This document shows positions 6,421-62,866 of a DNA stretch of 64,000 nt, piece after piece. Where the stretch lies: NCBI GenBank assembly GCA_038087875.1, contig CM075988.1, forward strand, positions 2,790,001 to 2,854,000, read 5' to 3'. Made by a program: the position numbers and the translations under genes. Position 1 is the stretch's first letter. Every line of letters starts with the position of its first letter. The stretch is from Malacoraja senta. Lineage: Eukaryota. The notes under the pieces were generated by a model. The model worked only from the letters and a program-made list of their open reading frames with translations, was not told where the DNA came from and made no database searches.

Positions 6421-7023
6421 TGTTACAATACCTACCTTCAGTGGCGCTGCAATTCTGCCACTGGTCTTGTGCGCGATTTTGGCGTCTTTGAGGGGGGGCG
6501 GGGTTAAAACGTGGGTTTCTCCTACCTTGTCCTGGTTAATATTTCGTTGGAGTGCAAACTTTTGCTGAAAAATCGTTCCGACGGGCGTTTTGTGTTTTTT
6601 TAATTTTTATTCGATCGACAATTTCAGCGCTGGAATTATTTTAAAATCAGCTTCGAAAGCCGTCAACGCCGACAACGGGGACGGATTTCACGCATGGGAC
6701 AGGTAAACAAAAGCAGTTTATTTTTTTGTATAAAAGTGCTTCTTAAGAGGCCTTTAATTCACATTTTTTAATGCGAAACGGTGATTCTGTTCCCCGAACT
6801 AACGGCAGAATTTTTCATGCCGATACGGGGTTAAATTCACTGCAAATCAACGTTCCAATTGATCGCGTTCCAGAAAACCCCACTCGCAAGATGATTTAAA
6901 TGGCCATTAATTTACAGGTGTTAAACATTAAATTCCTTCCATTTGGCCTGTAAATCCATGACAATGAGATTAAAAAATTATGTTATATTGTGAATTCTTG
7001 TGTGAATGTTATTTGGACACTTA

Positions 7024-7686
7024 AAGGCCTGTCTCACGAGTCTGCGATCATTGGCGGCAAAACAGGAATAATCTACCGCTCCTGGGCCGCCATAGACCGC
7101 GCACTCGGTCAAACGCACAATTCCGGGGCCGTGCGCCGTTGTTCCCAACACCGCACGGTGCTAAAATAAAACCAACACTGTTCAAAAATATGTCCCTACC
7201 GCACAGCCTCCGCCAGTGAGGCACGAGTGCAGCACGGCCGCCGCCACAGCCGCCGCCAGTGTGGCACGAGCGGCGTGCGTCGAACTTGCACCGCCACAGC
7301 CTCCGCCAGTGAGGCACGTGTGCGGCACGGCCGCCACCACAGCCACCGCTACAGCACCGCGATCAGCACAGCCGCCGCCACAGCCGCCGCTAGTGAGTCA
7401 CGTGTGCGGCACGGCCGCCGCCACAGCCACCGCTACAGCGCCACGATCAGGACGGCCGCCACAGCCCCGCAGATCCAAAATGACGTCATCGCAGTCGGCC
7501 CGCCCTTTTTTTTAACTTACCGCAAGCTCCTGGGACCAGCCGTATTTAAATCACTCGGCCCCCGTGCAGCATCCGTGCGGCGCTCCCGTGGCATAGGCTC
7601 AGCGCTCTCGCCGTTGCCGTGCGGTCCCCTCTACAGGCGAAGCCGCGCTTCACCGCCGATGACCGCAACACCGTGAGACAGAGCCT
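7024..7686. mobile_element. PIF/Harbinger-type MITE with GC-rich internal tandem repeats
   Basis: 15-bp imperfect TIRs AAGGCCTGTCTCACG / CGTGAGACAGAGCCT; TTA TSD at 7021-7023 and 7687-7689; internal CCGCCACAGCCGCCGCCAGTG-type repeats at about 7200-7470. Confidence 0.85.
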
Positions 7687-13625: not shown

Positions 13626-15290
13626 TTGCTGGGCTGTTTCCACGCTGTATCTCTAAACTAAACTAAACTAAACTGTCCTTACATTTCTACACAAATCATC
13701 TGCTTGCATTCTTAAGCAAGCTTGGAAGACACCATACGTTACTTGTGTTCATTGAAACTCCATGTTCTGCATTCCCATCTCCGTCCAAGCAGCCAATTCT
13801 CAGAAAGTCACACACGGCTTCTCTTGCCCAGACCTGTGCTGCTGATGATAGACTACCGCTGCATATCTGGAGTGCAGGCTCATTGTCAATTCCGAAGTGT
13901 GGATTCTTAGCAGCCTAAATTGACCAGCCTGAAAGAGGTTCCTCTGAAGAGGCAGATATTCTTTTGCATGGGTGGTGCAGTTTGTTGGGCCAGTGCTGTT
14001 GGCCTTGTGCTGAGCCTGGAACTAGGTATGGTCTTGACCCGAAACATCACCCCTTCCTTCTCTCCACAGATGCTGCCTGGTCCGCCTGAGTAACCTAAAG
14101 TATTTTATGTCTATCTTCTGAATAATATGATCTGATTTGATTTGATAGCACGCAAAATAAAAGCATTTCACTGCACCTTGACACATGCGATAATAATAAC
14201 CCTACACTAAACCTAATCAACCCTTGCCTATCTAAATGCAGGTAGATCTGATTATCAGAATCCCATCCAGTTGCTCACCCACCATTGCTGTCAGACTCAC
14301 TGGTCTGTTGTATAAAATTACGAGAGGCATAGATCGGGTAGACACTCAGAATGTAGATAAATATGGAAGAAGCGAGTCCTGTTGATCTGTTCAATATTAT
14401 CATAGAATATTCTCTATCCACCAATGCTGTCTGCCTACCGATGCTTCCAGCTCTTTCTTTTTACTTCTAGTTTCCCAACATCTGCAGTATTTTGTTTTTC
14501 ACTGATTGTTTTTGGGATGTGGACAGTAACAGCTGGATCTTTCTACCAGTGCCCACTGCGCGAGGGAGCATGGCAGAAGCTCTCGGAGAGCCGTGCTGGC
14601 AGTTGCCAACTGTAATAGGCAGCTGGCCACGGAATAGGGTGTTCCTGCCTGGTGTAGGTCTGAGACTCATCTCCTGCTTGCTGCCAAGACCCAGGAACCG
14701 CAAGGAGGAGTGAGTCTGCAACACCGGCCGGTGGACATTGGACAAAGGGCCGGCAAGAGGGGGACCGGTTGGGGGGTTCACGGTCGGCTGTGGGAGGCGC
14801 CCCCTGGGCCACAAAATGCTGAGGGACCCTGGGAGAGGAGAGAGGATGCCTCACTGGCGATCCGAATGAGGTGATGGCTTCAACAGGCCTTTGTGGCCAA
14901 CTGCAGCCTGAACTGTGCAACATGGTGCTAAAATGTGGTGACTGTTGCATACAGACTCAGTGGGCTGTTCCATACATGGGGTACATAATCAGGGATTATC
15001 TTTGTGTATGGCAATAATTACACTGATCTACATGCAAAACAATGTATTTCACTGCACCTTTGGTAAACGTGACAATAAAAGAAACATTGAATCCTTCTTC
15101 TCCGAATATTTTCCCGGTTGTCAGGAGCTGTGTAGTGGGCATCAGTCCCGGTTGCAGAGAACATCATCTACCTCTCTGACTGTGACAAACACTGAGGATC
15201 CTCCACCACTGTTCATTCTCATGTCTGCCTCATGGACATTCTCAACAGTCTAATGGTTCCTTCATTATCACGTGTAGCCTGCAGATCAGT

Positions 15291-17301
15291 TTACAAAACC
15301 TCAAATCACTATACCAAATATATTAAATTTAATTGAAGACTTTGGATCTTTTTCTGGATATAGAATAAATTGAATAAAAGTGAAATTATGCCAATAAAAC
15401 CGAAAGATTCAACACATCTTTTAAAATTCCCTTTTAAAATAGCTACAGAAAAATTTAAATACTGGGATCGAAATTACCAGAACATATCAAGGTATGTTTA
15501 GGGCAAATTTTGACCCCCTACTTAATAAATTAAACACACTAATTAAATTCTGGAAAACGCTCCCGATGTCTTTAATAGGTCGAATAAACGCAATAAAAAT
15601 TATCTTTCTACCACAAATTTTATACCTATTTCAATCAATTCCTATATACTTACCAAAGAAGTTTAAAAAAAACTCGACTCAGATATCACTAATTTTAATG
15701 GGACTATAAATCACATAGAATACAAAAAACTCATCTGAATAAACCTAAAGTATTAGGGGGTTTAGCACTACCTAATTTTATGTATTATTATTGGTCAGTA
15801 AATATTAAAAATATGATTCAACTGATGGATAACTCCGCCCAGCAAGTGGACTGGATTGTAATGGAGAAAGAGGATTGCTCCTCTAGAAACATTGGAGCGA
15901 TCCTCCTTTCTCCAATGAAATTGAATAACATAAATTATAATAAGAACCCAATTATTCATAGTACAATCCGAATTTGGAAACAAATAAAACAAAATTTAAA
16001 ATTAAGAAATTTATCACTTGTATTACCTATAGTTAATAACCCTTTGTTTAATCCTTCTATTATAGATAAAGCTTATACACAATGGGATAGACTAGGAATT
16101 AAAACGCTTGGTGACTTGTATGAAACTGGAAAATTACTTTCATTTCAACAATACAAATAAATATAAACTCGGAAATAATCAATATTTTAAATATTTTCAA
16201 ATATGCGATTATTTGAAAAAATATACAAAAGATCATTATAATAACCCAGTGGATGTATTGGACGAGGCAATGCAGATAAAAGCGGAATCAGCAAACTTAA
16301 TATCATATTTGTGTAATATTCTTAAATGTACAAATACCATCTACGGAGGGTATCAGAAGAGACTGGGAACAAGAGTTAGCTATTAAAATTTCAAAGGAAA
16401 GTTGGAATGAATACTTATTAAACGTGCATAAATGCTCGATTAATGTAAGACACACTTTAATACAATTTAAAATTTTACATAGATTATATTATTGAAAACT
16501 AAAATTCATAAAATTTTCCCAATGTATCATCTATTGTGATAAATGTCAATCCCCAAGAAGCTACTATAGCGCACTCATTCGTTTCTGTACAAAAATTCAA
16601 AAATTTTGGAATGAAATTTTTGAAATCTTTACAAAGTTATTTAAAACAAGACTGATACCCAAAGCAGAATGATTATCTTCGTATAACGGAAGATGGTCCA
16701 GAACTAAATGTGTTCAAAATAAACTAATGGACATGGTTAATAACTGGAAAAAAGCTAATTCTAAAATTTTGAAGAAGGCTCCAATACCAACTATAAATAT
16801 GTGGATTTCAATATGTTTGAAACATTACACCTTGAAGAGATAAGACTCCTCCCAGCAGGTAAACAGATCATTTCCACCTGACGTGGTCTGCTTTATAGAA
16901 TTATTAACAAAAATAGGTTGCAAAAGTACTTTAAAAAAAAAAAAATTGAGGTCAGGTAACGGGGGATGATAGTTGAAGAGTTGGTATGTCCCATTTACGT
17001 AATGCTCAAAAAATATTTGTTTCTCTCTTTTTCCTCTTTCTCTTTCCTTTCTTTCTAGGGCCTATTTCTTAACTCTTTTCTTTTGTTTTTAATTTTGCTC
17101 TTATAGGGTCTTTGTCTTTTTTGTTGTCATTTTCTACACTCTCAACTTTTTCCTTCACTTTCTTCTTTCTTTCAATCTTTTCCTTTTCTAGTGTAAAAAA
17201 TAAATGGAGTACATTAATTGTAAGAAGATATAAATGACGAGTACTAAGTATGCGGTTTGTAATGTAATGTACTTCTAATAATAAAAATAAAAATAAAAAA
17301 A
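15291..17301 (+). mobile_element. 5'-truncated, decayed L1-clade LINE
   Basis: AT-rich ORF2 remnants (WKTLPMSLIGRINAIKIIFLPQILYLFQSIP; GGLALPN..YYW), T-rich 3' UTR, A-rich tail 17278-17301; 15-bp TSD AGC(C/A)TGCAGATCAGT at 15276-15290 and 17302-17316. Confidence 0.9.
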
Positions 17302-24323: not shown

Positions 24324-24523
24324 NNNNNNNNNNNNNNNNNNNNNNNNNNNNNNNNNNNNNNNNNNNNNNNNNNNNNNNNNNNNNNNNNNNNNNNNNNNNN
24401 NNNNNNNNNNNNNNNNNNNNNNNNNNNNNNNNNNNNNNNNNNNNNNNNNNNNNNNNNNNNNNNNNNNNNNNNNNNNNNNNNNNNNNNNNNNNNNNNNNNN
24501 NNNNNNNNNNNNNNNNNNNNNNN
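24324..24523. other. Assembly gap (200 N)
   Basis: Run of exactly 200 N; the flanks (mid-CR1 on the left, SINE end on the right) do not join. Confidence 0.99.
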
Positions 24524-33545: not shown

Positions 33546-35920
33546 AAAAAAAAATGTTTCATGATACTTTGATGGCAGAGGCAGTCAGTTTTACTGTGCC
33601 TCTGGGCTCTGATCTGGAATGGTCAAAGAAGTGTAATCTACTCCAGATCTCTCTGCTCCACATACAAACCGGGACAAAAGCAACCTGAACGATTATCACC
33701 ACTCAGTGTGCTGTCCAACAGGTAGCAACTGTCAAAGTGCACGTTCTCCAATGATCCTCGGATGCTCAGACCAGGGGTGGCACAGTGGTGCAGTGGGTAG
33801 AACTGCTGCCTCACAACGCTAGTTCGATCCTGACCTCGGGTTCCGTCTGTGCAGATTTTGCACCTTCTCCCTGTGGATTTCCATCTGGTTTCCTCCCACA
33901 TCTCAAAGACATGCGGGTTTGTAGGCCTCTGTAAATGTGGGTGAGTGGTAGAATCTGGGGGGAGTTGGTGACAATATGAGGAGAATAAATTGGATCAGAG
34001 TAATGGAGACACTAGGGACCACAGATGCTGGTTTACAAAAACAAACACAAAATCTCAGCGGGTCAGGCAGCATTTCTGGAGTTCATGGATCTGTGATGTT
34101 TTGGGCCAGGATCCTCTTTGAGTCTGATTAGATTAGTTTTGTGTAAATGGGGGGTTGACAGTCAGTGTAGACACAATGGGCCAAATAATAAAAGGGCATA
34201 CCTTTGGAAAGGAGATGAGGAGGAATTTCTTTCGCCAAAGGGTGTGGAATCTGTGGAATTCCAAGTCAATGGCCAAATCATTGGGTGTTTTTAAAGGGGA
34301 GGTTGACAAATTCTTGATTAGTATGGGTGTCAAAGGTTATGGGGAGAAGGTAGGAGAATGGGGTTGAGAGGGAAAGATAGATCAGCCATGATTGAATGGC
34401 AGAGTAGACTCGTGGCCTAATTCTGCTCCAATGTCATGAATTTATAAGGGCCTGTTTCCACGCTGTATCTCTCTTTGAAAAAATTAACTCAGAGCACATA
34501 TGGGGAAAGTGTAAATGACTGTCCCATATTTGAGGAATCATTTGATTCTTCATTTGATGTTGTGGAAACTAAGTAAGCATGTGGCGGCATTCTGGTTACG
34601 TTACTGCCCTCACTACCAGCATGTTCCAACACCCTGGACCATGGACATGGCAGTGGGAGGGTGGATACACTGCGGCCTAGTGCTGCCCCTGGGTGGGCCG
34701 GAGAGCTGACTACAGCCGGAGCAGGTAGCTGTGGTAGGAGATCAGCCCTCCTGGACCCAGGGGCTGGGAAAGAGCTGCAGCAAACCCCTGGATAAAGGGC
34801 CTTCAAAGGGAACGTCCTGCAGCAAACAACAGCAGGAGATGGAGGCTGCTGCATTCACAGAGGTCAGCCCTCTGAGGGCAAGCACACCGGAGCATAACTA
34901 CCTCACACATCATATGGGGCTGTCCATAGACATAGCAGCAGAATCAGGCCATTTGGCCCATCTACTCTGTGAATCCCTGGTCTTTGTGTGTGGGGAGACA
35001 ATGGGGAGAGATTACATTGAACTAACTTCAGGAAGTGATGGGAATCCAGCAGACCTTGGTGCTCTCGGTCTTATGTAGATGTGGAGGGGTGGATTTAGTT
35101 CTGTTTAGTTTAGTTTAGTTTAGAGATACTGTGCGGAAACAGGCCCTTCGGCCCACCATCCATGATGACCAGCGAGCCCCGCACACTAACACTATCCTAC
35201 ACACACTAGGGACAATTTAAAATTATACCAAACCAATTAACCTACAAACCTGACAACTTTGGAGTGTGGGAGGAAACCGGAGCACCCGGGGAAAAACCCA
35301 CGCAGGTCACGGAGGGAACATACAAACTTCGTAGAGAGAGTCAGTCTGTCTGTGGGGTCTGTCGCACTTCCCCTGGGGCTTGTGTGTACCGTGACTTCCG
35401 TCTGACATAGATGTTCAGGACAGAAGGTACATGGAGGGTGTCTGTGCTCTGCAGGAGAGCTGTTTGTTCCCAGCCTCCACATACAGTCTCCACTAACACA
35501 GATGTTCACTCATCCCTGAATGCAGAGAGCAGTGCCGGTGAGCTGTGAACGTGTGTGCCTGTGTGAGTGGCTCAGTACATCTGCTGTAATATTTCCCACT
35601 GTGTTCCTCTCCTTGCTTCCAGGCTAACACATTCCCTCCATTACTGCAGCGCTGCTAAAAATACCTGACCTTTACAGGAACCTGTCATGTCCAACTGTTC
35701 TTCACTCTGATCAACTGACTGCAGTACATCTGCACTAACAACAGGTCAGGTGCAGCTGCTGCAAACCTGCAGTAAACACAGAAACATTGCAATCAGGTCA
35801 GGCAGCGTCTGTGGAGAAAGGAACACTTCGCAGTTCAGGCAAATAACCCTTGGTCGGAACTTCTCTTTAAAATAAAAAAAATATTCTGATGGTAGTTTAT
35901 TGACCTGAGATGTTAACTCT

Positions 35921-39049: not shown

Positions 39050-39983
39050 CTGTTGCCTCCACCATGCCTTCAAGGATCACCACGATCTCAAAGTCCTCCT
39101 GCTGCAGCTGGCTGCGGCTCATCTCCCAGAAGGGGCTCTTCTCGTTGATCTCGTGGGAGATGATGAGCGGCGATACGAGGAAGAGCCGGTCATCGCCGGT
39201 GTCAAAGCCCACGTTGATGTCGGTCTGGTTGAGGGGGATGAACTCGCCTTCCTTGGTCTGCCGGGACTTGATGAGCTTGGCCCGGATGGAAGCCTCCACG
39301 ATGTGGGAGTTGCGGAGGTCCCCCACGCGGAACATCAGACAGAGCTTCTCATCTCGGAGAGAGATGACGGCGCGGTGCGAGAACATCAGCGTCTCCGCAC
39401 GGTTCTTGGGCTGAGAAATCTTCACGAACATGCATCCGACCATCAGGGCGTTGACGATAGATCCCAGGATGGCCTGGACCAGCAGCAAGATGATGCCCTC
39501 AGGACACTTCTCCGTGATAACTCTGTGCCCGTAGCCAATTGTCGTTTCAGTCTCGATAGAAAATAGAAATGCCGACACAAACCCGTTCAAATTGTCCACG
39601 CACGGCGTCCAGTTGGAGTCTCCCAGATGCTCAAGGTCTCCACGGATGTATGCTATCAGCCACCAGATGAAGCCAAAGAACAGCCAGGTAATGGTGAAGA
39701 CCAATGTGAAGATTAAAAGGTTAAAGCGCCACTTGAGGTCCACCAGGGTGGTGAAGAGGTCACTGAAATAGCGGTATGTCTCTTGCACATTTCCATGGTG
39801 GACGTTGCATTTCCCATCCTTGTTCACGTACCTTTGTTTCCGTTTCTTTGGCTCATTGAGCAGCCTCGGCCTGTCTGTGGTTAGCACATTGCCGCGGGCT
39901 TGTTTAGACAGCTTCTTAGATTCTCTTATATTCGCCCGAATGTCCATGTCGTTGTTGCGGGCGATTCGAGGCTCTCCTGGCAT
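39050..39983 (-). CDS. KCNJ5: G-protein-gated inward rectifier K+ channel Kir3.4/GIRK4, first coding exon (311 codons + 1 nt)
   Basis: Kir3 hallmarks [82 protein letters not shown]5-like N-terminus (KK..KQAR...TDR.RLL.E.KK); phase-1 donor ACAG|GTAGGG at 39050/39049, the conserved Kir3 intron position. Paralog assignment needs a tree. Confidence 0.9.
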
Positions 39984-40040
39984 TCTGTCCCGACTACAAC
40001 TCCTGCCTACTCCTCACAACGCACACCTGAAATAAAGATT
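39984..40040 (-). other. KCNJ5: Splice acceptor and 43-nt 5' UTR part of the KCNJ5 coding exon
   Basis: Minus strand TCTTTATTTCAG|GTGTGC with the exon starting at 40026; an in-frame TGA upstream of the ATG supports 39983 as the start codon and implies a non-coding upstream exon. Confidence 0.7.
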
Positions 40041-40124: not shown

Positions 40125-41979
40125 AGATAGTAAAAGTTTCTTTAGGTATGTGAAGAGGAAAAAATTAGTTAAGACCAAAGTTGGGCCGTTGAAGACTGAA
40201 AAGGGTGAATTTATTATGGGAAACAAGGAAATGGCAGATGAGTTGAACAGTTACTTAGGATCCGTCTTCGCTATGGAGGACACAAATAATCTCCCTGATG
40301 TACTAGCCAGAGGATCTGGGGTGACTGAGGAACTGAAGGAAATCCACATTGGGCAGGAAATGTTGTTGGGTAGACTGACCGGACTGAAGGCTGATAAATC
40401 CCCAGGGCCTGATGGTCTGCATCCCAGGGTACTTAAGGAGGTGGCTCTAGAAATCATGGACACATTGGTGATCATTTTCCAATGTTCTATAGATTCAGAA
40501 TCAGTTCCTGTGGATTGGGGGGTAGCTAATGTCATCCCACTGTTTAAGAAAGGCGGGAGAGAGAAAACAGGGAATTATAGACCAGTTAGCCTGACATCGG
40601 TGATGGGGAAGATGCTGGAGTCAATCATAAAAGATGAAATGGCGGCACATTACGATAGCAGTAACAGGATCAGACTGAGTCAGCATGGTTTTTCGAAGGG
40701 GAAATCATGCTTGACTAATCTTCTGGAATTTTTTGAGGATGTAACTAGGAAAATGGACAAGGGAGAGCCAGTGGATGTTGGGTACATGGATTTTTAGAGA
40801 GCATTTGATCAGGTCCCACAAACGAGATTAGTGGGCAACATTAGGGCACATGGTATTGGGGGTAGAATGCTGACATTGATAGAAAATTGGTTGGCAGAAA
40901 GGAAACAAAGAATAGGGATTGACGTGTCCCTTTCAGAATGGCAGGAAGTGACTAGTGGGGTACCACAAGGCTCGGTGCTGGGACCGCAGCTATTTACAAT
41001 ATATATTAATGATTTAGATGAAGGGATTACAAATAACATTAGCAAATTTGCAGATGACACAAAGCTGGGTGGCAGTGTGAACTGTGAGGAGGATGCTATG
41101 AGTATGCAGGGTGACATGGACAGGTTAGGTGAGTGGGCAGATGCATGGCAGATGCAGTTTAATGTGGATAAATATGAGGTTATCCACTTTGGTAGCAAAA
41201 ACAGGAAGGAAGATTATTATCTAAATGGTGTCAAGTTGGGAAAAGGGGTAGTACAATGGGATCTGGGAGTCCTTGTTCATCAGTCAATGAAAGTAAGCAT
41301 GCAGGTACAGCAGGCAGTGAAGAAAGCGATGGCGTGTTGGCCTTCATAACAAGAGGAATTGAGTATAGAAGCAAAGAGGTCCTGCTGTTGTACAGGGCCC
41401 TAGTGAGACTACACCTGGAGTATTGTGTGCAGTTTTGGTCTCCAAATTTGAGGAAGGATTTTCTTGCTATTGAGGGAATGCAGCATAGGTTCGCCACGTT
41501 AATACCCGGGATGGCGGGACTATCATATGCTGAGAGAATGGAGCGGCTGAGCTTGTATAATCTGGAATTTAGAAGGATGAGAGGAGATCTTATTGAAACA
41601 TATACGATTATTAAGGGTTTGGACAAGGGTTAAGGGCAGGAAACATCTTCCCAATGTTGAGGAAGTCCAAAACCAAGGGCCACAGTTTAAGAATAAGGGG
41701 TAAGCCATTTAGAACGGAGATGAGGAAACATTTTTTCACACAGACAGTTGTGAGTCTGTGGAATTCTCTGCCTCAGAGGGCGGTGGAGGCCGGTTCTCTG
41801 GAAACTTTCAAGAGAGAGCTAGATAGGGCTCTTGAAGATAGCGGAGTCAGGGGATATGGGGAGAAGGCAGGAACTGGGTACTGATTGTGGATGATCAGCC
41901 ATGATCACATTGAATGGCGGTGCTGGCTTGAAGGACCGTAAGGCCTACACCTGCACCTATTGTCTATTGTTTATTGTCT
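40125..41979 (+). mobile_element. 5'-truncated CR1 LINE
   Basis: ORFs 40150-40797, 40831-41349, 41256-41633 and 41654-41884 carry CR1 RT motifs (KSPGPDGLHPRVLKE, KFADDTKLGG); (TATTGTC)n tail. Confidence 0.93.
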
Positions 41980-42393
41980 TCGGCCCACCTAGTGCGCACC
42001 GACCAGCAATCCCTGCACATTAACACCATCCAACACACACTAGGGACCAAAGATCATAGAGCGGAGCAAGATAGTCCACTCGTTGAAAAAGCCATGTTAG
42101 GTCATGAGTAATCCTCAGTGTCATTTCCGTAACCGACTTCCGTCTCCCCTCCCATCTACGATCTTTGGTCATGACGTCTCTTCTGGACCCTTCTCACCCA
42201 GGTGTTAGATAAAGTGAATTATTTTTCTTTTGATTACCTATAATTGTGCTGTGCTCTAAAATGGCAGACTCTAGCTTCAGTTCCTAGCGCAATATGTATG
42301 AAATTGTTGCAATGCAGAACACAGTTCTGAATCGCTAAAGACCGATGCATTTCATTTGCACAAGTGCGTTCCGCACACAGAACTGTCGCGGTT

Positions 42394-45300
42394 CATAGAA
42401 ACATAGAAACATAGAAACAAAGAAAATAGGTGCAGGAGGAGGCCATTCGGCCCTTCGAGCCAGCACCGCCATTCATTGTGATCATGGCTGATCATCCCCT
42501 ATCAATAACCCGTGCCTGCCTTCTCCCCATATCCCTTGATTCCACTAGCCCCTAGAGCTCTATCTCTCTCTTAAATCCATCCAGTGATTTGGCCTCCACT
42601 GCCCTCTGTGGAAGGTAATTCCATAAATTCACAACTCTCTGGGTGAAAACGTTTTTTCTCACCTCAGTCATAAATGAACTCCCCTTTATTCTAAGACTAT
42701 GCCCCTGGTTCTGGACTCGCCCAACATTGGGAACATTTTTCCTGCATTTAGCTTGTCCAGTCCTTTTATAATTTTATATGTTTCTTTAAGATCCCCCTCA
42801 TCCTTCTAAACTCCAGTGAATACAAGCCTAGACTTTTCAATCTTTCCTCATATGACAGTCCCGCCATCCCAGGGATCAATCTCGTGAACCTACGCTGCAC
42901 TGCTTCAATCACAAGGATGTTCTTCCTCAAATTAGGAGACCAAAACTGTACACAATACTCCAGATGTGGTCTCACCAGAGCCCTATACAACTGCAGAAGA
43001 ACCTCTTTACTCCTATACTGAAATCCTCTTGTTATGAATGCCAACATTCCATGAAGGCCAACATTCCATTAGCTTTCTTCACTGCCTGCTGTACCTGCAT
43101 GCCAACTTTCAGTGACCGGTGTACAAGGACACCCAGGTCTCGCTGCGCCTCCCCCTTACCTAACATAACCCCATTGAGATAATAATCTGCCCCCTTGTTT
43201 TTGCCGCCAAAGTGGATAACCTCACATTTATCTATATTATACTGCATCTGCCATGCATCTGACCACTCACTCAACCTGTCCAGGTCACCCTGCAACCTCC
43301 TAACATCCTCTTCACAGTTCACACTGCCACCCAGCTTTGTGTCATCCGCAAATTTGCTAGTGTTGCTCCTAATTCCCTCTTCCAAATCATTAATATATAT
43401 GATAAACAGTTGCGGCCCCAACACTGAGCCTTTCGGCACTCCACTCGCCACTGCCTGCCATTCTGAAAAGGACCCGTTCACTCCTACTCTTTGCTTCCGG
43501 TCTGCCAACCAATTTTCTATCCATGTCAACACCCTACCCCCAATACCATGTGCTCTAATTTTAGTCACCAGTCTCCCGTGCGGGACCTTATCAAAGGCTT
43601 TCTGAAAGTCTAGATACACTACATCCACTGGCACCCCTTCATCCATTTTACTTGTCACATCCTCAAAAAATTCCAGAAGATTAGTCAAGCATGATTTCCC
43701 TTTCATAAATCCATGTTGACTTGGACTAATCCTTTTGCTACTATCCAAATGCCCCATTATTACATCTTTAATAATTGACTCCAGCATCTTTCCCAGCACC
43801 GAAGTCAGGCTAACTGGTCTATAATTCCCCGTTTTCTCTCTCGCTCCTTTCTTGAAAAGTGCGATAACATTAGATATCCTCCAATCCACAGGAACTGATC
43901 CTGAATGTATTGAACATTGGAAAATGATCACCAATGCGTCCACTATTTCTAGAGCCACCTCCCTGAGGACCCTGGGATGCAGACCATCAGGCCCAGGGGG
44001 TTTATCATCCTTCAGTCCCATTAGCCTACCCAATACTATTTAATAATAATAATAATAATAATATCTTTTATTGTCATTGCACGTCAGTGCAACGAGATTC
44101 AGTATGCAGCTCCACCGATGTACAAGAAAAGTAAAATAAATAAATAAGCAAGTAAGCTGAGTGACGTGACCATCCGAGGGAGACTGTCCAGGGAGGGTGG
44201 GTGGGGGGGGGCACTCAGCAGGGCCGGTTCAGAGCCGCTATAGCTTTTGGAATAAAGCTGTTTCTGAGTCTGGAGGTTCGGGCGTAGAAGGCCTTGTAAC
44301 GTCTGCTGGAGGGAAGTAGTTCAAACAGTCCGTTACAAGGGTGTGATGAGTCCTTATGGATGCTGACGGCCTTCCTGAGGCACTGTGTGTGGTAGATGCC
44401 CTCCAAGGTTGTTAGCTCTGTCCCAATGATCCTCTGCGCTCTGTTGACGACGCGCTGAAGAGCTCTCCTCTCCGCCTCCGTGCAGCTGAGATACCACACA
44501 GAGATGCCATACGTTAATATGCTCTCTGTGGTGCAGCGGTAGAACGTTGTCAGCAGCTGTTGGGGCAGACCAGTCTTTTTTAATGTCCTCAGGAAGAACA
44601 GTCGTTGCTGTGCCTTCTTGACCAGCGCAGCGGTGTTGGTGGACCATGTGAGGTCCTCTGAAATGTGAGTGCCCAGAAACTTAAAGCTGGACACTCTCTC
44701 CACACTTTCCCCGTAAATGGAGATTGGGGCGTATTCTCCATTATGGGACCTCCTGAAGTCAATAATCAGCTCCTTGGTCTTGGAGGTGTTTAGTGACAAG
44801 TTGTTATGAGCGCACCAGTCCGCCAGGTTCTGCACCTCCGCTCTGTATTTTGTTTCATCACCGTTGGTGATCAGCCCAATCACTGTTGTGTCGTCTGCAA
44901 ACTTCACGATGGTGTTGGTGTCGAATGCAGGGACACAGTCGTGAGTGAAGAGGGAGTAGAGCATGGGGCTTAGTACACAGCCCTGTGGTGTGCCGGTGCT
45001 CAGGGTGATAGTGGAGGACAGGTGCGGGCCCAGTCTCACTGCCTGCGGTCGCTCCGTCAGAAAGTTCAGGATCCAATCGCATATCGGCGAGCTGAGGCCT
45101 AGCTGGTGGAGTTTGGTGGTGAGCTTGGTGGGGATGACCGTATTGAATGCAGAGCTATAGTCAATGAAGAGCATCCTCACATACGTGCCCTGTCTGACCA
45201 GGTGAGTCAGGACAGTGTGAAGAGCCAGAGAGATGGCATCCTCTGTTGATCTATTTGCCCTGTATGCAAATTGATGGGAGTCCAGTGAGGCAGGGATGCT

Positions 45301-48120
45301 GGATTTGATATGGGAGAGGACCAGCCTTTCAAAGCACTTCATTGGGATTGGAGTTAGGGAACCGGGCGGTAGTCGTTCAGGTTGGTGACTTTGGACTTTT
45401 TCGGCACCGGCACTATGGTGGCTGTTTTCAGGCACTTGGGGACCGTTGCCAGAGATAGAGACAGATTGAAGATTCTCGTGAATACCTCCGCCAGCTGTAC
45501 AGCACAGTCCTTTAGTACCCTTCCCTGGACTCCATCCGGGCCTGCAGCCTTGCGTGGATTGATCCTATGCAGAGCGCACTGTGCCTCCTGGGTGCTCAGT
45601 GTTAAGGCCTGTTCCTCCGCCATGGCCGGGGTTATTCCACTCCTGGTGGTGTTGCCAGTTTCGAACCGGGCAAAGAAGGTGTTTAGTTCGTTGGCCAGTG
45701 TGATATCACCGTGGGGGCAGGCGGGGCTGCTCTTGTAGTCAGTGATGTCCCTAACACCCTGCCACATGCTTCTGGTGTCCGCGGTGTTGAAGTGGTCTTC
45801 TACCCTTTGCCTGTGGACGTCTTTGGCCTTTTTTATGCCTCTGTTCAGGTTCGACCTGGCCGCACTGTAAGCAGAAGTGTCCCTGGATTTAAAGGTATTG
45901 TTGCGTGCCTTTAGCATATCCTGAACCTCCTTGTTCATCCAGGGTTTCCGGTTTGGGAACATCTTTATTTGCTTGTCCACTGTGACAGTCTCCGCACAGC
46001 AATTGATGTAGGAGAGCACAGTGGAAGTGTACTCCTCCAAGTCTACCTCTGTACCACTGGTAGCCTGTTGTGCAAACAGGTCCCAGTCGGTGCGATCAAA
46101 GCAGTCCTGGAGTTGTAGGGTGGCGTCCTTGGGCCATATTTTGACCGTCCTTATTGCAGGTTTGGTCTTGCGGATGAGGGGTTTGTATGCAGGCAGTATA
46201 AACAGTGAGAGGTGATCGGATTGTCCCAGGGATGGGCGGGGGAGAGCTCTGTATGCGTCCTTGATGTTGGTGTACACTTTATCCAACGTGTTTGAGCCCC
46301 TGGTAGGGCACTGCACATGCTGATGGAATTTGCGGAGTGTAGCTCGTAGGTCGACCTGGTTAAAGTCCCCTGCAACAATGAAGGCACCGTCGGGGTGAGC
46401 ATCCTGCTGCTTACTGATGGCCGGGTGCAGCTGTGCTAGAGCTAGGTTAGCATTAGCATGTGGTGGGATGTATATGGCCATGATGATAACCACAGTAAAC
46501 TCCCGAGGCAGGTAAAACGGCCTACATTTAAGCAGTAGGTATTCCAGGTCTGGGGAACATTAGCTCTCTACTGCAGTGTGGTTGGTGCACCAGTCATTGT
46601 TGATGTAGATGCAGAGCCCGCCACCCTTGCTCTTACCGGAGTCCTTTGTTCTATCAGCACGATGCTGATTCATTTCTCGCCTAATGAAAATTTCTTTCAG
46701 TTCCTCTATCCCCTTAGATCCTCTGTCCTCCAGTACATCTGGGAGATTGTTTGTGTCTTCCTCAGTGAAGACAGATCCGAAGTACCTATTCAACTCTTCT
46801 GCCATTTCCTTGTTGCCCATAATAATTTCATCCGTGTCTGCCTTCAAGGGACCCACATTTGACTTTGCTACTCTTTTTCCCTTAACATATCTCAAGAAGC
46901 TTTTACTGTCCTTCTTTGTATTCCTGGCCAGCTTCCCCTCGTACTTCATCTTTTCAGCCCATATTGCCCGTTTTGTTTCCTTCTGTTGTCCTATGAAAGT
47001 TTCCCAATCCTCTGGCTTCCGGCTACTCTTTGCTGTGTTATACATCTTTTCTTTTAGTTTTATTCTATCCCTAACTTCTCTTGTCAGCCACGGTTGCCTC
47101 CTACTCCCCTTAGAATCTTTCTTTCTTTTTGGAATGAAATGATCCTGCGTTTTCCGGATTATGCCCAGAAATTCCTGCCATTGCTGTTCCACCATCATTC
47201 CTGCTAGGATGCCTTTCCAGTCTACTTTGGCCAGCTCCCCTCTCATGCCTTCATAGTCCCCTTTGTTCAACTGCATCACTGCCACTTCTGATTTAACGTT
47301 CTCCTTCTCAAATTGCAGATTAAAACTAATCATATTATGATCACTACCTCCAAGCGGTTCCTTTACCTCGAGTTCTCTTATCATATCTGGTTCATTGGAT
47401 TACACTAAATCCAGAATTGCCTTTTCTCTGGTCGGCTCCATTACAAGCTGCTCTAAGAATCCATCTCGGAGGCATTCTACAAACTCTTTCTTGGGGTCCT
47501 GAACCAACCTGATTTTCCCAGTCTACCTGCATATTGAAATCCCCCATCACCACAGTGGCATTACCTTTGTTACATGCCAGTTTTAACTCCTGCTGCAACT
47601 TACACCCTACATCCCGGGCTACTATTTGGGGGTCTGTAAATAACACCAATTAGTGTCTTATTGCCTTTACAATTCCTCAACTCAATCCACAGTGACTCTA
47701 CCTCGTCAGTCCCTATGTCTTCCCTTGCAAGGGACTGAATTCCACCCCCCACCAGCAGAGCTACCCCCTGTCCTCTGCCCACCTGTTTGTCCTTTCTATA
47801 GGATGTATAACCCTGAATATTAAATTCCCAGGCCCGATCCTCCTGCAGCCACATCTCAGTAATCCCCACAATGTCAAATCTACCAACCTCTAACTGAACC
47901 TCAAGCTCATCCACTTTACCTCTTATACTTCGCGCATTCATATACAATACTTTTAATTCCTTACGCATCTCACCTTTCACATCGATCCCTATTACACTTG
48001 GCCATACTCTCCTATCCCTTTGTGAGCTTCCTTTCCTGTTAATTCTGGGGTCATTAACCATCGCTTTACTCTCTTTGCCTTTAACTCCATCCTCAACTAT
48101 CCCATTTGACACCCCTCCCC
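42394..48120 (-). mobile_element. CR1 LINE with near-complete but broken ORF2 (APE endonuclease and RT)
   Basis: LKVLYMNARSI..DIVGITE.WL, VIYRPP, VMGDFN, GGSDH, then RT motifs in 43032-44033; (TTTCTATG)n tail at 42394-42425. Confidence 0.93.
44042..46671 (-). mobile_element. Young Rex1/Babar-type LINE inserted in the CR1
   Basis: ORFs 45354-46493 and 44215-45435 ([51 protein letters not shown]) separated by one frameshift near 45360; (TTA)n tail; ATTT duplicated at 44038-44041 and 46672-46675. Confidence 0.92.
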
Positions 48121-49331
48121 CCTAATGGATCGTATTGGGAGTCTAAAATCAAATTAGCATCCGATGTTTCTTAATGCAGTTTCTTGATTGTGAATTAGGA
48201 ATTTATGCACTCAGGACATTTTTACTCGATTTTTGTCTTGGAAAAATATAATTGGTTTCTATTTCAAATGGTTTACACCATTAACTAATCACAACTGAAG
48301 TAAACTCTTTTAAAACACGTTGTTCCTGCAATTTATCATTTACGTGGTTTAAAAAACAAAATATATGAATACCAATTAGCAGAATATAGGGTAACCATCT
48401 GACCATGTATAACTATTTATTTTACAGCAAAGAAATATATAGATTTTAAAACACGGGTATTGTAAGCGTCGGATTACAGTAAAGGTGCCTCAACATTAAG
48501 TGTTCCATTTCTCTACAAATCTCCAAAATGCTACCCATAATAAAAAAAATATTTTGAATTCCATGTAAACGTCTATCACTTTTATTTATTCGATCCAAAA
48601 TGAAAAGGCGAAATGTTAATAAAATGCTAATCATTACAAGCTTTTTTGGGCTGTTTGTGGCAAGAATCTTCATGTTGTATTGTCATTTGCTTTTGCACAC
48701 ATTGAAAAGAAAAGTAAAGAAAAGAGTAAAGAAAATAACTGGGCTAAGTGCAGGGAGAATCGGAATCGCTGTATTTTTCACCCATTCAATCGGGCCCCAA
48801 AGCATTGTGTGCGTCGATTTTAGAAACTGTCATACAAGTAATGAAAAGAGGGGAATGAAGCGTGTATTTACGGGAAAGGGACTTTCAGTCTGAAGAAGGG
48901 TCTTGACCCGAAACGTCACCCATTCCTTCTCTCCAGAGATGCCGCCTGTCCTGCTGAGTTACTCCAGCATTCTGTGTCAATCTTCAGTTTAAACCAGCAT
49001 CTGCAGTTCCTTCCTGAGCATTGCCCTCTCCGTCATGCCATTTTTAATGGTCGAATTGCAGATAATGCAGGCCATTGAAATATTGCTCTGACAACAAGCA
49101 AACATTTGCTAAAAGTAATTCCATCCTGGACTGTAAACCAAAGCTCTCATTCGTCCTCCTCAAAAAAGACAATGGTTGCATGCTCCGATTCCATTCTAAG
49201 TTAGTATTTCAGAAACTTTTCAATTACCATACCAAATCATTCCCATCATAGTTTTCCTCATTTCTATTTTCAAATAAAGAAACCAACCCGACCCGACTCC
49301 GCTCTATGATCTTTGCTGATTACACATTCCA

Positions 49332-49402
49332 CGGAAGTCGGGTCGGGTTTGCTAAAATGGCGGCCGCCCCGCCCCGTTCCGTACTACACGTTAGTCCATT
49401 GG
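49332..49402. promoter_or_regulatory. Cluster of ETS, YY1, GC-box and CCAAT motifs in the right end of the P-like element
   Basis: CGGAAGT 49332-49338, AAAATGGCGG 49354-49363, CCGCCCCGCCCC 49364-49375, ATTGG 49398-49402. Motif matches only; activity unknown. Confidence 0.4.
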
Positions 49403-49689
49403 ATTTTGCAGGAGTGGACCATCTTGCTCCGCTCTATCATCTTTGCTAGTGACAACTTACAGTTACCCCAAGCCAATTAACCTACAAACCTGTACGTCAT
49501 TGGACTGTGGGACGAAACTGAAGATTTCGGAGAAAACCCACTTGGTCACGGGGAGAACGTACAAACTCTGTACAGACAGCATCTGTAGTTGGGATTGAAC
49601 CTGGTTCTGCGATGCTGTAAGGGAGTAGCTCAACTGCTCCGCCACCGTGCCGTCCTTAAAGAGGTAGAGGAGCAAATGTTTCCAAACTA

Positions 49690-57960: not shown

Positions 57961-58743
57961 CGTTAAGCTCACTGTCTCATCTACAAATTTACTAATCTTG
58001 CTTTTTACATCCACATCCAGATTATTTATTTATACAGGAGCCTCTGGGATAGTGAATAATATGAATTATGGATATGTGGCTTTATACAAATTCTCCCATT
58101 AAAGAATTTTAAAGTTATTAATAACATTAATCATTATAAGGTAGACAAAAGTACTGGAGAAACTCAGCATCTATGGAGTGAAGGAAATAGGCAACGTTTC
58201 AGGCCGAAACCCTTCTTCAGACTGATGATTATTATAATGATATTAATCATTATAAAATGTTTCATGATTCATTAATGACTGGATTCAGAATGTATTCCAT
58301 AAGAGTGATATTAGGGTGATATAAAATTACAGCGAATATATATACAGGAATAGAGCCAGGTTACTGTAGAAAAGACACATTCTTGATTTAAGAGAAAATT
58401 GCCTTATGGACAGTTCTCAGGAACAGGACATTTACATAATCCCGGCACAGTCTGTATTACAAAGCGCCAGGGTCCCAGCACCGATCGATCCCCGTGGAAC
58501 TTCACTGGTCACTGGCATATAATTGGAAGGTTAAACGAGAACTTACCAGTTTAAAGTTTGATCTTTATTTTATGAGGTGTTACGATGAGGGATTACGTGA
58601 AGAAGCCCGCCAGCCTGCATGCGCGTCAACCTTCAAAGCAACGATGTGAAATCACAGAAACAGTTGCTGAACTGATTATAGGAAGATTCGAGAAACTAGA
58701 TCTACCACATGACCTTTATGAGAAGAGGGTTGGGAGCGGAGGG

Positions 58744-58856
58744 CACGTAATCCCTCATCGTAACTCCTCATAAAATAAAGATCAAACTTCAAACTGGTAA
58801 GTTCTCATTTTATCTTCCTATTTTACTTCGGAGTCACGTGAGTGACTACGTGAAGA
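58744..58856. repeat. DIRS internal complementary region (ICR)
   Basis: 58744-58818 is the reverse complement of 58525-58599 (about 5 mismatches); 58819-58856 is the exact reverse complement of 63028-63065. Confidence 0.93.
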
Positions 58857-59025
58857 TTTTAAAGCTCTGTGATTTCATGCCACGAACACGAGTCCATGCA
58901 ACACACTGCATTAATTGACTAGAAATGATTGAAAAGATAATGCATTCAGACATGACATAGATTTAAAACATGCTGATGCCATTAATAAGCAAATAATAAG
59001 CAAATTATTGAATAGAATTTAAAAT

Positions 59026-59977
59026 TTAGTTGGCAAACGAACCCGGCCTGGCAATTGGTATATTATAAAAGGTTTGGAAAGTCCGCTCATTCGACCATCC
59101 TGCTGTCGCTATGATGCGGTCCAGTGGTACCTCCATGAACCTTGCTGCTGATGTTATCGGAGCCCTGGTGGAGTGAGATTTAAACACATCAGTGTTCACT
59201 CCTGCACAAGCCAATACATATCTACACCATCTGGAGATGGTCTGCACTGAAACCCTCTTGTGTGTTTTTTTGTGGCTAACGAACATTGCCAACTCAGTGC
59301 CTCTAAGGTTCTTTGTAGCCTTAAAATATTGATGAATATGTTTGACAACACACAATCTATGGTCCATAGGATATACCAGAAATTCCAGCTTTAGACCCAA
59401 CGGTCTGCTTAGTTTAATAACTCATTTACATAGAACGTTATTTTGTTGGTAGATATAACCATTCTGTTCAGCCGTAGCTTATGCAACGACTGGACGCGTT
59501 GCGCTGAACCAGGGCCATGAGCATAACTACCTTATATGAGAGCCAGGCCAAAGATAAGGATGTAGCTGGAGCCCGCCGGCGAAGTAGTGTTAAAACAATG
59601 TTAATATCCCATACTTCCGTGTACCTGGGCCTGGGAGGATATGAGTTAAAGATATCCTACATAAATCTGGATATCTGAGGGTGAGACCCAACAGAGTGGG
59701 TCCCGATCCCAGCAGCAAATATGATGAGAAGGCACTTTTGGCACAGTTAATGGCACTATAACTTAATTTTTTTGTCAAAGAACCATTTGAAAATGAACTC
59801 CAAGACGTCAGTTATCCATGCCGTATTATATGTTATATTAGTATTTAAACAAAACACTTCCCATCTCGTGATGTGGATGTACTGCTTTATGGTGCTATCC
59901 CTCCAAGCTGCAGTGAGCACGTCCATAGTTCGGTCTGACAACCCGAGCCCCAGGAATGGTCTTTTTGGAGTCTGCAA
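59026..59977 (-). pseudogene. DIRS tyrosine recombinase (fragmented)
   Basis: AWRDSTIKQY..RW..FC, LSYSAIN.AKSA.S, LCVV, VSVQTISRW, FKSHSTR, AGWS...TF..FY. Confidence 0.88.
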
Positions 59978-59978
59978 G

Positions 59979-60325
59979 TCAATAAACTGATTCTATCATG
60001 CAGAGGGTGGCTTCCCGAGTCACGGGATGAACCAGCAAATTTTTGTGTTTGGAAATAACCATATAAGGTTTTATTATCATTCCCAATATCAGCGAGAACC
60101 ATGGCTGCATAGGCCAGTCAGGCACTACGAAAATGCCTGAAGCGGAATCTTGCTGGATTTTTTGGAAGACCCGAGTGATGAGGCAAAATGGAGGAAAGGC
60201 ATAAAAGAACATTCCTCCTCAGTGTAGCGAGAATGCGTCTATCGCCACTGCCCCTGGATGTGGCTCCCATGCCACATATTTTTGCAACTGGTGATTGAGC
60301 CTAGATGCAAACAAATCGATATTCA
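59979..60325 (-). pseudogene. DIRS DNA N6-adenine methyltransferase-like domain
   Basis: IDLFASRLN.QL..Y..W.P.P.A.A.DAF followed by YAFPPF.LI.RV.QKI....A.GI.VVPDWP.QPWF. Confidence 0.85.
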
Positions 60326-60399
60326 TTAAATATTTTGTGATCCAACATACATTCTGTGTAATCATTAAATTTACGTGACAATACACCAGCGCCAAATGA

Positions 60400-61700
60400 G
60401 GTTAGCTAAACTATCACAGGATACTGACTTGATTCCACCATGTGATTAATACATGCCACCGCCGTAGTGTTATCAACTTGTAGTTGAACATGCAGATTAT
60501 ACATATTCCCACAATAAGCCTTTAACCCATAGAATGCCCCTAGTATCTCTAGATAGTTGATACCAAATAACTGAAGAATTGGTAACTCATGCACATCCCC
60601 TTTTGCCTCCGCAACTAGAGATGGTATCAGTAGTTCCTCATCCTTGAGCACTAGCATCAGTTTGTAATACAACTGAAGGTTTACTGACCAAATGTTACTG
60701 GAGCAATGCTGAATATTGGTCGTCCACCATTGTAATTCTGATAGCTTCAGCCGGTAATAGCATAGGTCTGTTAAAATGACCTAAATGGTACTTGAGAACT
60801 TGCTCCTTTGCACGTTGTAAATTTTGATAATGCAAAGGCCCAATTTGCGCAGCTGGAAAAACAGCCACTAAATTGCCAATTACACTAGCCACCTGGCGAA
60901 TAGAAGGCTACTTTATAACAACAAGGTTGTTACAGGTTTCTATTAACTCTAATCTCTTGCCCCAGGGCAGAGTCACAGACATATTGATAGAGTTAAAGGT
61001 AAATCCCAAATAATCAATAGCTCTAGTTGGTATCAACTTAGATTTTTAACTGGATGAATGAGAAACCCCAAATTCTCAAATATGAGTTTCGTGGCTGAAA
61101 CAGCCAATTTAGCCAAATACAGCGTTTTAGAACATCATCCAGCTGGACCATAACAATATGTTTTTGCGCTCTAAGCATTGGCTTTAGTAATTTGGTAAAT
61201 AACCCGGGAGCTTGTTAGCCCATTAGGCAACGCTTTAAACTGCCATACTTGCCTCATCCAGCTAAATTTGAAATATCTCCGGTGATCCCCCATTTTAAAA
61301 ATGTCTATACTGCACATGTGAGTTAAGTTGAGTTAAATCAAGGATGATCCGACATCCTCCATCTTACTTTTCTGGAGGCGCAGGGGTGTTGTTGCCGAAA
61401 CGGTGAAGCTTTGCTCGTCGTGGGTGCTTTAATTAACCCGACAGCTTTTGCTTCCTCTCGATTACCCCTGTTGTGTGTAATTTATGAATTTCTGCTTGTA
61501 TATCCAAACCTTCTTGTTTGGAATGAATAAATGCGACTTGGTATATGTTGTATGGGTGGCAATGAGTTAAGAGGAAATTCAATTTGGAACCCTTGTATAC
61601 TGTGCAGTATAAACTGGTCTGATGTTATCCACCGCCATTTGTGCAAAAACAAGTGTAATCTACCACCAACTTGTAACTGATCCACACACTCCATGTTCTG
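60400..61700 (-). pseudogene. DIRS reverse transcriptase / RNase H (fragmented)
   Basis: VGGRL..F...W..IT.D.FIL..IQG, DGGCRIILDL..LN, WQFKALPNGL, (Q)LDD at about 61134-61145, TDAS, INYLE, DNTTAV..IN. Confidence 0.85.
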
Positions 61701-61774
61701 GAAAGAACCGACCCACCTACCTCCATGGTTACCGGTGGTCTTATGGCAGGCCCCAAAGGCCCCTGATACGGGTT

Positions 61775-62866
61775 CTATTTCCGTCCTCGAGGTTTGGAGG
61801 ATAGAACTGCTCGAGTGCGTGGATTGCACATTCTCCATGAAGGCCAGCTTGGCTCTTGGCCTAAAAACGACCTCTGCCCAGAGAAATCAGCTTTCGAGCT
61901 ACCTCCAGCTTCAGCGAACAACTTACTGCTGATGGATGCGTAGGGCTGTTGTCGCCGAAATGGTGAAGCCTTGCTCGTAGTTGGTGCCTTGATTAGCCCG
62001 AGAGCTTTTGCTTCCTTATCTAGGTTTTTAACCTGTTTGGGTAGATCTTCCCCGAACAGAAGATTCGACGGCTGGACATGGCCTGGCAAATGCCGTGATG
62101 CCTGAAGCCAGCAAATTTAAATTCTTTGGAGTTTCATTTATTGGGCTTTGATGCCCTATTTTTCTCCAATGTACCCCCAGATAGAGCTGTTCACTGCCGG
62201 CACTTTTAGGGATGCACAATTTATAGGTGTATGGAATTTTGCAGCCGTCACCTGTTCGTGTAATGATGTGATGTGAGGTAGTTGATGCTGGTAGCCAACT
62301 CTTCTTGCAGCGGCTCCCTTGTTTGCGAGGGTATCGCAAACCTTGATGCCATGGCAGGCAGTTCTTGAACCTCATGCATGCATACCAGTATGTTCCACGG
62401 ACATACCTCCGAATTCGGAGTCAGTCATATACTGACCCCTGGCACTCCCCTCCACAGAGAGGGAGATTTTTAAGCAGCCCTGAAACAGGCGCTGCCACAG
62501 GTACCAAAGTAAACCTGTGCTGATATGTCTCCATATCATGGAGCATATCATGATGAGCATCCTCTCCATGAGGTGCTCCATCTGGGATTAACGCCCGAGG
62601 ACGCTACCCATATTTGTCGGAGGGGAACCCTCCTGGCCTGACTTGTCCGAGTCCACAGGCCTCTCAGACTTCCGTTTGGCTTTTACCCCCTTTCGGGGTC
62701 GCCAAAGTGCTTTGGCAAGCACCAAGTCTGAAGTCGCTGACCGCACTGTCAGCGACTCGGGCAGCGAACCCGAAGACCGCCGGCTACCCGCACTCCCATG
62801 GTCCTCCGTAGCCGGTTTCCCCATGGCCCGCCTGGATTTCGCCCTGGATTTCCATATCCGCAGCAA
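61775..62866 (-). pseudogene. DIRS gag-like ORF1 (fragmented)
   Basis: Lies upstream of RT within the ITRs; LLFGEDL.KQVK motif typical of the DIRS ORF1 C-terminal part; several stops and frameshifts. Confidence 0.6.

What the first reader, a model, noticed from the sequence alone, without database searches (positions are those of the whole stretch)
42040..49453. P-element-like transposon architecture in a vertebrate intron
Seen: 34-bp TIRs starting CAAAG, an 8-bp TSD, a perfect 11-bp internal inverted repeat about 85 and 105 bp from the ends, an exact extra 19-bp TIR copy at 49297-49315 and a 12-bp partial copy at 42156-42167. Known: P-superfamily elements have CANRG termini and 7-8 bp TSDs; the Drosophila P element has 31-bp TIRs and 11-bp internal inverted repeats; in vertebrates the family is mostly known through THAP9 and zebrafish remnants. 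Inference: a P/THAP9-type transposase mobilised this family after the SINE expansion in this lineage. I saw no transposase remnant, and hAT elements also make 8-bp TSDs.
Basis: partly seen in the sequence, partly recalled or inferred. Interest (0 to 1): 0.7.

Follow-up and report, generated by a model that had tools for sequence, protein, structure and literature searches.

The report
Gene-less P-like transposon, fish intron
This is a real, old, gene-less cut-and-paste transposon of about 1.5 kb, swollen to 7.4 kb by later retrotransposon insertions; its ends look more like those of P elements than of hAT elements, but no transposase links it to either family, and similar elements are already known from zebrafish and medaka.

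Summary
The ends are as described, with two corrections: the TIRs match at 32 of 34 bases and the 8-bp TSD at 7 of 8. The duplication is still real, because 10 uninterrupted copies of the host SINE in the window carry the site once. About 5.9 of the 7.4 kb are nested retroelements (a CR1-type LINE, a Rex1-type LINE inside it, a 132-bp repeat). The transposon itself is 1,538 bp in three pieces. These pieces share a high CpG content (o/e 0.86-0.88; window 0.47) and recur as multiple diverged copies in 4 of 4 runs laid. No transposase remnant was found (Pfam, 18 frames; homology searches, 6 frames), and no autonomous partner could be sought because no genome is held. The CAAAG end and the 8-bp TSD fit both P and hAT. 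TIR length, the CAA start and the 11-bp subterminal repeat lean towards P (about 0.6). Precedents: zebrafish Pdre and medaka Izanagi. Verdict: non-autonomous TIR transposon, P-like, superfamily not proven; modest interest.

The parts
42040..42047 (.). left target-site duplication CTAGGGAC
   Evidence: single in empty SINE copies
42048..42081 (+). left 34-bp TIR, starts CAAAG
42048..42393 (.). left segment of the transposon (346 bp, CpG o/e 0.86), multi-copy
42133..42143 (+). 11-bp subterminal inverted repeat, left arm
42149..42167 (-). degenerate inner TIR copy (16 of 19), oriented like a right end
42394..48121 (-). nested LINE with (TTTCTATG)n tail, RT and endonuclease remnants; CR1 type (label recalled); interrupted by a second LINE
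44042..46666 (-). second LINE nested in the first, RVT_1 plus PF09004, short tandem AAT tail on the + strand; Rex1/Babar type (label recalled)
48122..48883 (.). middle segment of the transposon (762 bp, 33% GC, CpG o/e 0.88), multi-copy, no protein match
48884..49015 (.). nested 132-bp high-copy short repeat
49016..49445 (.). right segment of the transposon (430 bp, CpG o/e 0.88), multi-copy
49285..49349 (.). hairpin with 14-bp perfect arms (49285-49298 / 49336-49349) enclosing the inner TIR copy; four CCGAC units
49297..49315 (-). exact 19-bp inner TIR copy, same orientation as the right TIR, 130 bp inside it
49331..49341 (-). 11-bp subterminal inverted repeat, right arm
49412..49445 (-). right 34-bp TIR
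49446..49453 (.). right target-site duplication CTAGTGAC (one mismatch)
41975..42047 (-). host SINE, 3' part (left of the insertion)
49454..49656 (-). host SINE, 5' part with A-box- and B-box-like motifs (V-SINE/HE1 type, label recalled)
39050..40026 (-). neighbouring gene: large exon of a GIRK (Kir3) potassium channel with acceptor AG and donor GT; the element lies upstream of this acceptor

Best explanation
A 1,538-bp non-autonomous cut-and-paste DNA transposon, most likely moved in trans by a P-superfamily (THAP-domain) transposase encoded elsewhere. Shown: it inserted into a SINE, duplicated 8 bp, carries 34-bp TIRs and an 11-bp subterminal inverted repeat, belongs to a multi-copy family, and now holds two LINEs and a short repeat. 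Inferred from P biology (PMC7776569): the enzyme bound subterminal sites, paired the ends, excised the element and inserted it at an 8-bp stagger. The two inner TIR copies both keep the terminal CAAAG and face like right ends. They are most simply older or captured ends, or products of template switching in gap repair, and may double as binding sites (inference). This copy is old and gene-less.
For: TIR, TSD and empty sites. Contigs that join the two SINE halves across the element in 4 of 4 runs, probably paralogous SINEs (table 5). Interior pieces recur: up to 17 and 20 distinct contigs carry the same variant at 48462 and 48790, and summed depth is 400-1700 against 8-75 for listed single contigs (not a copy number). 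The three pieces share CpG o/e 0.86-0.88 against 0.36-0.51 for the nested inserts. For P over hAT: TIR 34 bp against 27-32 bp in insect P elements and 27 bp starting CAATG in Izanagi, whereas 34 of 35 anole hAT families have 11-16-bp TIRs and 35 of 36 start CAG or TAG, the other CAR. 11-12-bp subterminal repeats occur in Drosophila P and Pdre2. The target matches the P motif at 7 of 12 positions (1.3% of window sites do as well) and the vertebrate hAT motif NTCTAGAN at 3 of 6 (18%).
Against: No THAP or P-transposase remnant: 0 of 18 frames in Pfam at E up to 1, no CxxHF motif in 18 frames, no hits and nothing usable. No Drosophila-type THAP site near the ends (best 6 of 8). CAAAG fits YARNG, given for hAT in PMC3014272, and the target also fits the hobo motif (4 of 6, 2.6%). 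One insertion site cannot give a target consensus. Zebrafish Pdre2 has 13-bp TIRs and one anole hAT has 57-bp TIRs, so TIR length is not diagnostic. The hAT baseline is one lizard genome with few independent lineages.
Confidence: 0.6

Rival explanations
1. A non-autonomous hAT element with unusually long TIRs; the CCGAC units and inner TIR copies are its subterminal transposase-binding repeats.
For: 8-bp TSD and YARNG terminus fit hAT. The target has T at position 2 and A at position 7, and fits the hobo motif at 4 of 6. Five CCGAC units lie within 165 bp of the ends. hAT is present in all vertebrate lineages surveyed.
Against: 34-bp TIR with a CAA start is unlike 34 of 35 and 35 of 36 anole hAT families. 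NTCTAGAN is matched only at chance level. No BED or hAT domain in 18 frames.
Confidence: 0.2
2. A non-autonomous element of another or unclassified 8-bp-TSD superfamily (Zisupton/KDZ-like, MULE-like, or an unplaced 'DNA-8' type; labels recalled).
For: No protein links it to any family. The three right-end-like TIR copies have no exact parallel in the P elements I read about.
Against: The combination of CA terminus, about 30-bp TIR, 8-bp TSD and 11-bp subterminal repeat is the P layout. PMC4350176 found Zisupton only in teleosts among 23 vertebrates.
Confidence: 0.17
3. The 7.4-kb span is not one element: two separate short elements or ends lie by chance on either side of LINE insertions.
For: No single contig spans the element, and no joint across the LINE (42393 to 48122) was among the 15 joints shown of 5585. 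The TSD has one mismatch.
Against: The host SINE continues in register across the whole span, with the 8-mer duplicated. The three interior pieces share composition and copy level.
Confidence: 0.03

Closest known systems
Izanagi, non-autonomous P element of medaka (PMC2820524, passages read)
   Same: Gene-less, 1,316 bp against 1,538 bp here; 27-bp TIR starting CAA; 8-bp TSD; low copy number (13 listed); the described copy is also split by a nested Rex1 LINE.
   Different: A degenerate three-exon THAP domain was recovered from the Izanagi consensus; none was found here, from a single copy. The TIR sequences differ after the first three bases.
Pdre elements of zebrafish (PMC10983969 part 1 of 7 and passages; PMC7776569 passages)
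   Same: 8-bp TSD, CA terminus, 12-bp subterminal inverted repeat, internally deleted copies.
   Different: 13-bp TIR starting CATAC, subterminal repeats about 400 bp in, and a full-length THAP9 partner is known.
Drosophila melanogaster P element (PMC7776569, PMC3698922, PMC3276498, passages)
   Same: 31-bp TIR, 11-bp subterminal inverted repeat about 100 bp in, 8-bp TSD, target ending GGAC.
   Different: No sequence match beyond CA; no Drosophila-type THAP sites near the ends; extra inner TIR copies here.
Vertebrate hAT families (anole table, PMC3014272 section 8 part 1)
   Same: 8-bp TSD, YARNG terminus, non-autonomous derivatives that collect LINE and SINE insertions.
   Different: TIRs 11-16 bp in 34 of 35, start CAG or TAG in 35 of 36, target NTCTAGAN or NTRNNYAN.

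Membership tests
Non-autonomous TIR DNA transposon | TIRs plus a TSD verified against an empty site | tested here: met
   32 of 34 TIR; 8-mer single in 10 of 10 other SINE copies
Non-autonomous TIR DNA transposon | Multi-copy, no transposase frame | tested here: met
   4 of 4 runs, multiple diverged contigs; longest stop-free stretch 108 codons, no family
P superfamily | Cognate transposase with THAP domain and P-type DDE core in an autonomous copy with the same TIRs | not testable with these tools
   no genome held; TIR scans of metagenome, viral and prokaryote collections gave 0
P superfamily | THAP or transposase remnant inside this copy | tested here: not met
   18 of 18 frames; 6 frames or parts; short spliced exons could be missed
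P superfamily | 7-8-bp TSD | tested here: met
   8 bp at one site; lengths
P superfamily | Terminal motif (YARNG in PMC2820524; CANRG recalled, not found in print) | tested here: met
   CAAAG at both ends; shared with hAT
P superfamily | TIR of about 27-32 bp and an 11-12-bp subterminal inverted repeat | tested here: met
   34 bp and 11 bp; typical rather than defining
P superfamily | Drosophila-type THAP binding sites near the ends | tested here: not met
   best 6 of 8 near the ends; Pdre2 also lacks them
P superfamily | Target motif GTCCGGAC with ANAGT/ACTNT flanks | tested here: inconclusive
   5 of 8 and 7 of 12 at a single site
P superfamily | GTP cofactor and 17-nt 3' overhangs | not testable with these tools
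   biochemical; PMC7776569
hAT superfamily | 8-bp TSD and YARNG terminus | tested here: met
hAT superfamily | Short TIR (11-16 bp) starting CAG or TAG, as in anole families | tested here: not met
   34 bp, CAA
hAT superfamily | hAT transposase or BED remnant in this copy | tested here: not met
hAT superfamily | Target NTCTAGAN or GTNCGNAC | tested here: inconclusive
   3 of 6 and 4 of 6 at one site

The most novel reading that the evidence does not exclude
A P-superfamily family that entered a cartilaginous-fish lineage by horizontal transfer (its DNA lacks the CpG loss of the host's other repeats), still has an intact transposase copy in some species, and built its layered ends by inserting into or capturing its own termini. 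It would supply a vertebrate P transposase with its own cognate ends, where the zebrafish enzyme excised but did not integrate in the published assays.
Probability: 0.15. Interest if true: 0.6.

Novelty: new member of a known kind. Interest (0 to 1): 0.3.

Why it matters
If P-type, it extends mobile P elements from teleosts (Pdre, Izanagi) to what is probably a cartilaginous fish, a group reported as poor in DNA transposons apart from Tc1/mariner. Its ends would be a bait for finding a natural vertebrate P transposase with cognate TIRs, which bears on why zebrafish THAP9 excises but did not integrate (PMC10983969). Without that partner it is one more unclassified non-autonomous family.

Tried and rejected
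Pfam on all 18 frames of the three transposon segments: no family. phmmer of one middle-segment frame over 1.84 billion representatives: 0 hits. Word-indexed searches of three more frames against longer proteins only: none (weak evidence by the tool's own note). ESM Atlas on the two longest open stretches: nothing usable. Twelve of the 18 frames had no homology search beyond Pfam and motifs. A by-eye likeness of one minus frame to the P-transposase C-terminus (recalled) was not supported and is rejected. A per-codon test with 26 family variants picked no coding frame. TIR scans of metagenome (2), viral (1) and prokaryote genome (1) collections: 0. Rfam: 0. No RNA holder listed. Run shares of 0.26-0.30 in 9 coded organisms may come from the SINEs and are not used; 4 of 23 listed runs were laid. 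In one search the nested repeats filled the tables (40 of 1156 differences, 15 of 5585 joints, 24 of 18923 loose ends shown), so no flanks of other copies were seen. No TSD was found around the three nested inserts. My own TIR-plus-TSD scan found no second copy in the window, but it also missed this element because of a mismatch near the end; the mismatch search found no other full TIR. The paper search for CANRG returned unrelated papers. Exact look-up of four window proteins: not in the collection. Earlier findings by sequence, place and one word set: none.

Full report
Observation. The TIRs (42048-42081, 49412-49445) start CAAAG and match at 32 of 34 bases. The flanking 8-mers are CTAGGGAC and CTAGTGAC, 7 of 8. 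The 11-bp inverted repeat lies 85 and 104 bp from the ends; a match this long appeared in 2 of 1000 shuffles and 12 of 1000 random window pairs. The inner copy at 49297-49315 is exact to the first 19 bases of the left TIR, and the one at 42149-42167 matches 16 of 19 (chance about 7e-5 within the left segment). Both face like right ends. The 19-bp copy sits inside a hairpin with 14-bp perfect arms (z -4.3, 1 of 200 shuffles).

The TSD is real. The element splits a SINE whose other copies in the window are 72-90% identical to it. Ten such copies carry the 8-mer once, 5 of them exactly CTAGGGAC. Contigs that join the two SINE halves across the element occur in 4 of 4 runs laid; these are probably other SINE copies, not the same locus.

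Anatomy. Most of the 7.4 kb is nested: a minus-strand LINE (42394-48121) with reverse transcriptase and endonuclease remnants, a second LINE inside it (44042-46666; RVT_1 plus PF09004), and a 132-bp high-copy repeat (48884-49015). The first LINE continues in register across the second. The labels CR1, Rex1/Babar and V-SINE are recalled from tails, domains and box motifs. The transposon itself is 346 + 762 + 430 = 1,538 bp. All three pieces have CpG o/e 0.86-0.88, against 0.36-0.51 for the inserts and 0.47 for the window (49 CpG seen, 26 expected, P about 5e-5; 3 of 147 window tiles reach 0.86). In four runs from four coded organisms the interior is covered by several diverged contigs, for example 17, 13, 3, 11 contigs with one variant at 48462 and 10, 14, 20, 10 at 48790. 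Summed depth is 400-1700 against 8-75 for listed single contigs. That shows a repeat family; the tool warns that depth is no copy number.

Context. A GIRK (Kir3) channel exon lies at 39050-40026 on the minus strand, best match GIRK2. It begins at an acceptor AG, and 40126-41972 is LINE, so its upstream exon should lie beyond the element. 'Intron' is thus a sound inference; the upstream exon was not located. The host is a vertebrate. That it is a skate or ray is my recall from the repeat types; no call named the organism.

Search for the enzyme. Pfam found nothing in any of the 18 frames of the three pieces, and no THAP CxxHF motif is present. Homology searches of six frames or parts found nothing usable. 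No genome is held, and four TIR scans of other collections were empty. The decisive link, an autonomous copy, is untested. A THAP split into short exons, as in Izanagi, could be missed in one decayed copy.

P or hAT. Both make 8-bp TSDs, and the YARNG terminal motif is given for P in PMC2820524 but for hAT in PMC3014272; CAAAG fits it. What leans to P: TIRs of 27-32 bp in insect P elements and 27 bp starting CAATG in Izanagi, against 11-16 bp in 34 of 35 and a CAG or TAG start in 35 of 36 anole hAT families; 11-12-bp subterminal repeats in Drosophila P and Pdre2; a target nearer the P motif (7 of 12, 1.3% of sites) than NTCTAGAN (3 of 6, 18%). Against: the hobo motif fits about as well (4 of 6, 2.6%), there is only one site, no Drosophila-type THAP site lies near the ends, and Pdre2 shows that P TIRs can be short. 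I put P at 0.6, hAT at 0.2 and other at 0.17. I file it as a non-autonomous TIR transposon, P-like, not as a member of the P superfamily.

Mechanism. Shown: insertion with an 8-bp duplication, no detectable coding capacity, retroelements nested inside, a multi-copy family. Inferred: mobilisation in trans by a THAP-type transposase that binds subterminal sites, pairs the ends and inserts at an 8-bp stagger (PMC7776569). The inner TIR copies keep the outermost bases, which a mere binding site would not need; they may be earlier or captured ends, or gap-repair products. Whether they are shared by the family is unknown. On timing, the element is younger than this SINE copy and, if the inserts arose here, older than two LINEs and a short repeat; 'after the SINE expansion' goes beyond that.

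Novelty. Non-autonomous P elements of this build are described in medaka (Izanagi, even with a nested Rex1) and zebrafish, and P is scored as a superfamily in a survey of 39 fish and chordate genomes. Four paper searches aimed at cartilaginous fish and passages of three shark or ray genome papers showed no description of a mobile P family there. Repbase, Dfam, figures and supplements were not seen and may hold one. Papers seen: PMC10983969 (part 1 of 7 and passages), PMC3014272 (passages and section 8 part 1), passages only of PMC2820524, PMC3698922, PMC7776569, PMC7599744, PMC3276498, PMC4168063, PMC4350176, PMC6817897, PMC10115646, PMC12361510; bioRxiv 2025.06.08.657570 had no match to my terms.

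Verdict. Observation confirmed with small corrections; interpretation partly supported. New member of a known kind; interest 0.3, rising to about 0.6 if an intact P transposase with these ends is found.

Noticed in passing
window 39050-40026 (-): Large exon of a GIRK (Kir3) potassium channel gene, best PDB match GIRK2; neither the upstream nor the last exon was located in the window.
   Followed up: partly
window about 58200-62500 (-): Probable DIRS-type retroelement: weak Phage_integrase hit at 59029-59421 (E 0.0024) and RT/RNase H-like stretches seen by eye in the translations printed.
   Followed up: no
window about 15000-17000 (+): AT-rich stretch whose frames read by eye like decayed L1-type ORF2 fragments (print; no Pfam result).
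   Followed up: no
window 6500-8000: The only other CpG-undepleted stretch (o/e 1.1-1.3), with 41-84-bp GC-rich tandem repeats at 7198-7460; may be another mobile element or a CpG island.
   Followed up: no
window 40126-41972 and 42394-46910: Two copies of the same LINE family in inverted orientation, about 80% identical, 420 bp apart and straddling the left end of the element.
   Followed up: no
window 48884-49015: Very high-copy 132-bp repeat; joints show it often in inverted and tandem arrangements, as recalled for Penelope-like ends.
   Followed up: no
window 35240-35509 (-): A Pfam DUF3657 (FAM135) hit (E 2e-5) whose frame overlaps a SINE copy; probably spurious.
   Followed up: no
window 42256-42265 and 49352-49361: A 10-bp direct repeat CTAAAATGGC in both end segments, resembling a YY1 site (recalled).
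   Followed up: no
window 24324-24523: Assembly gap of 200 N.
   Followed up: no
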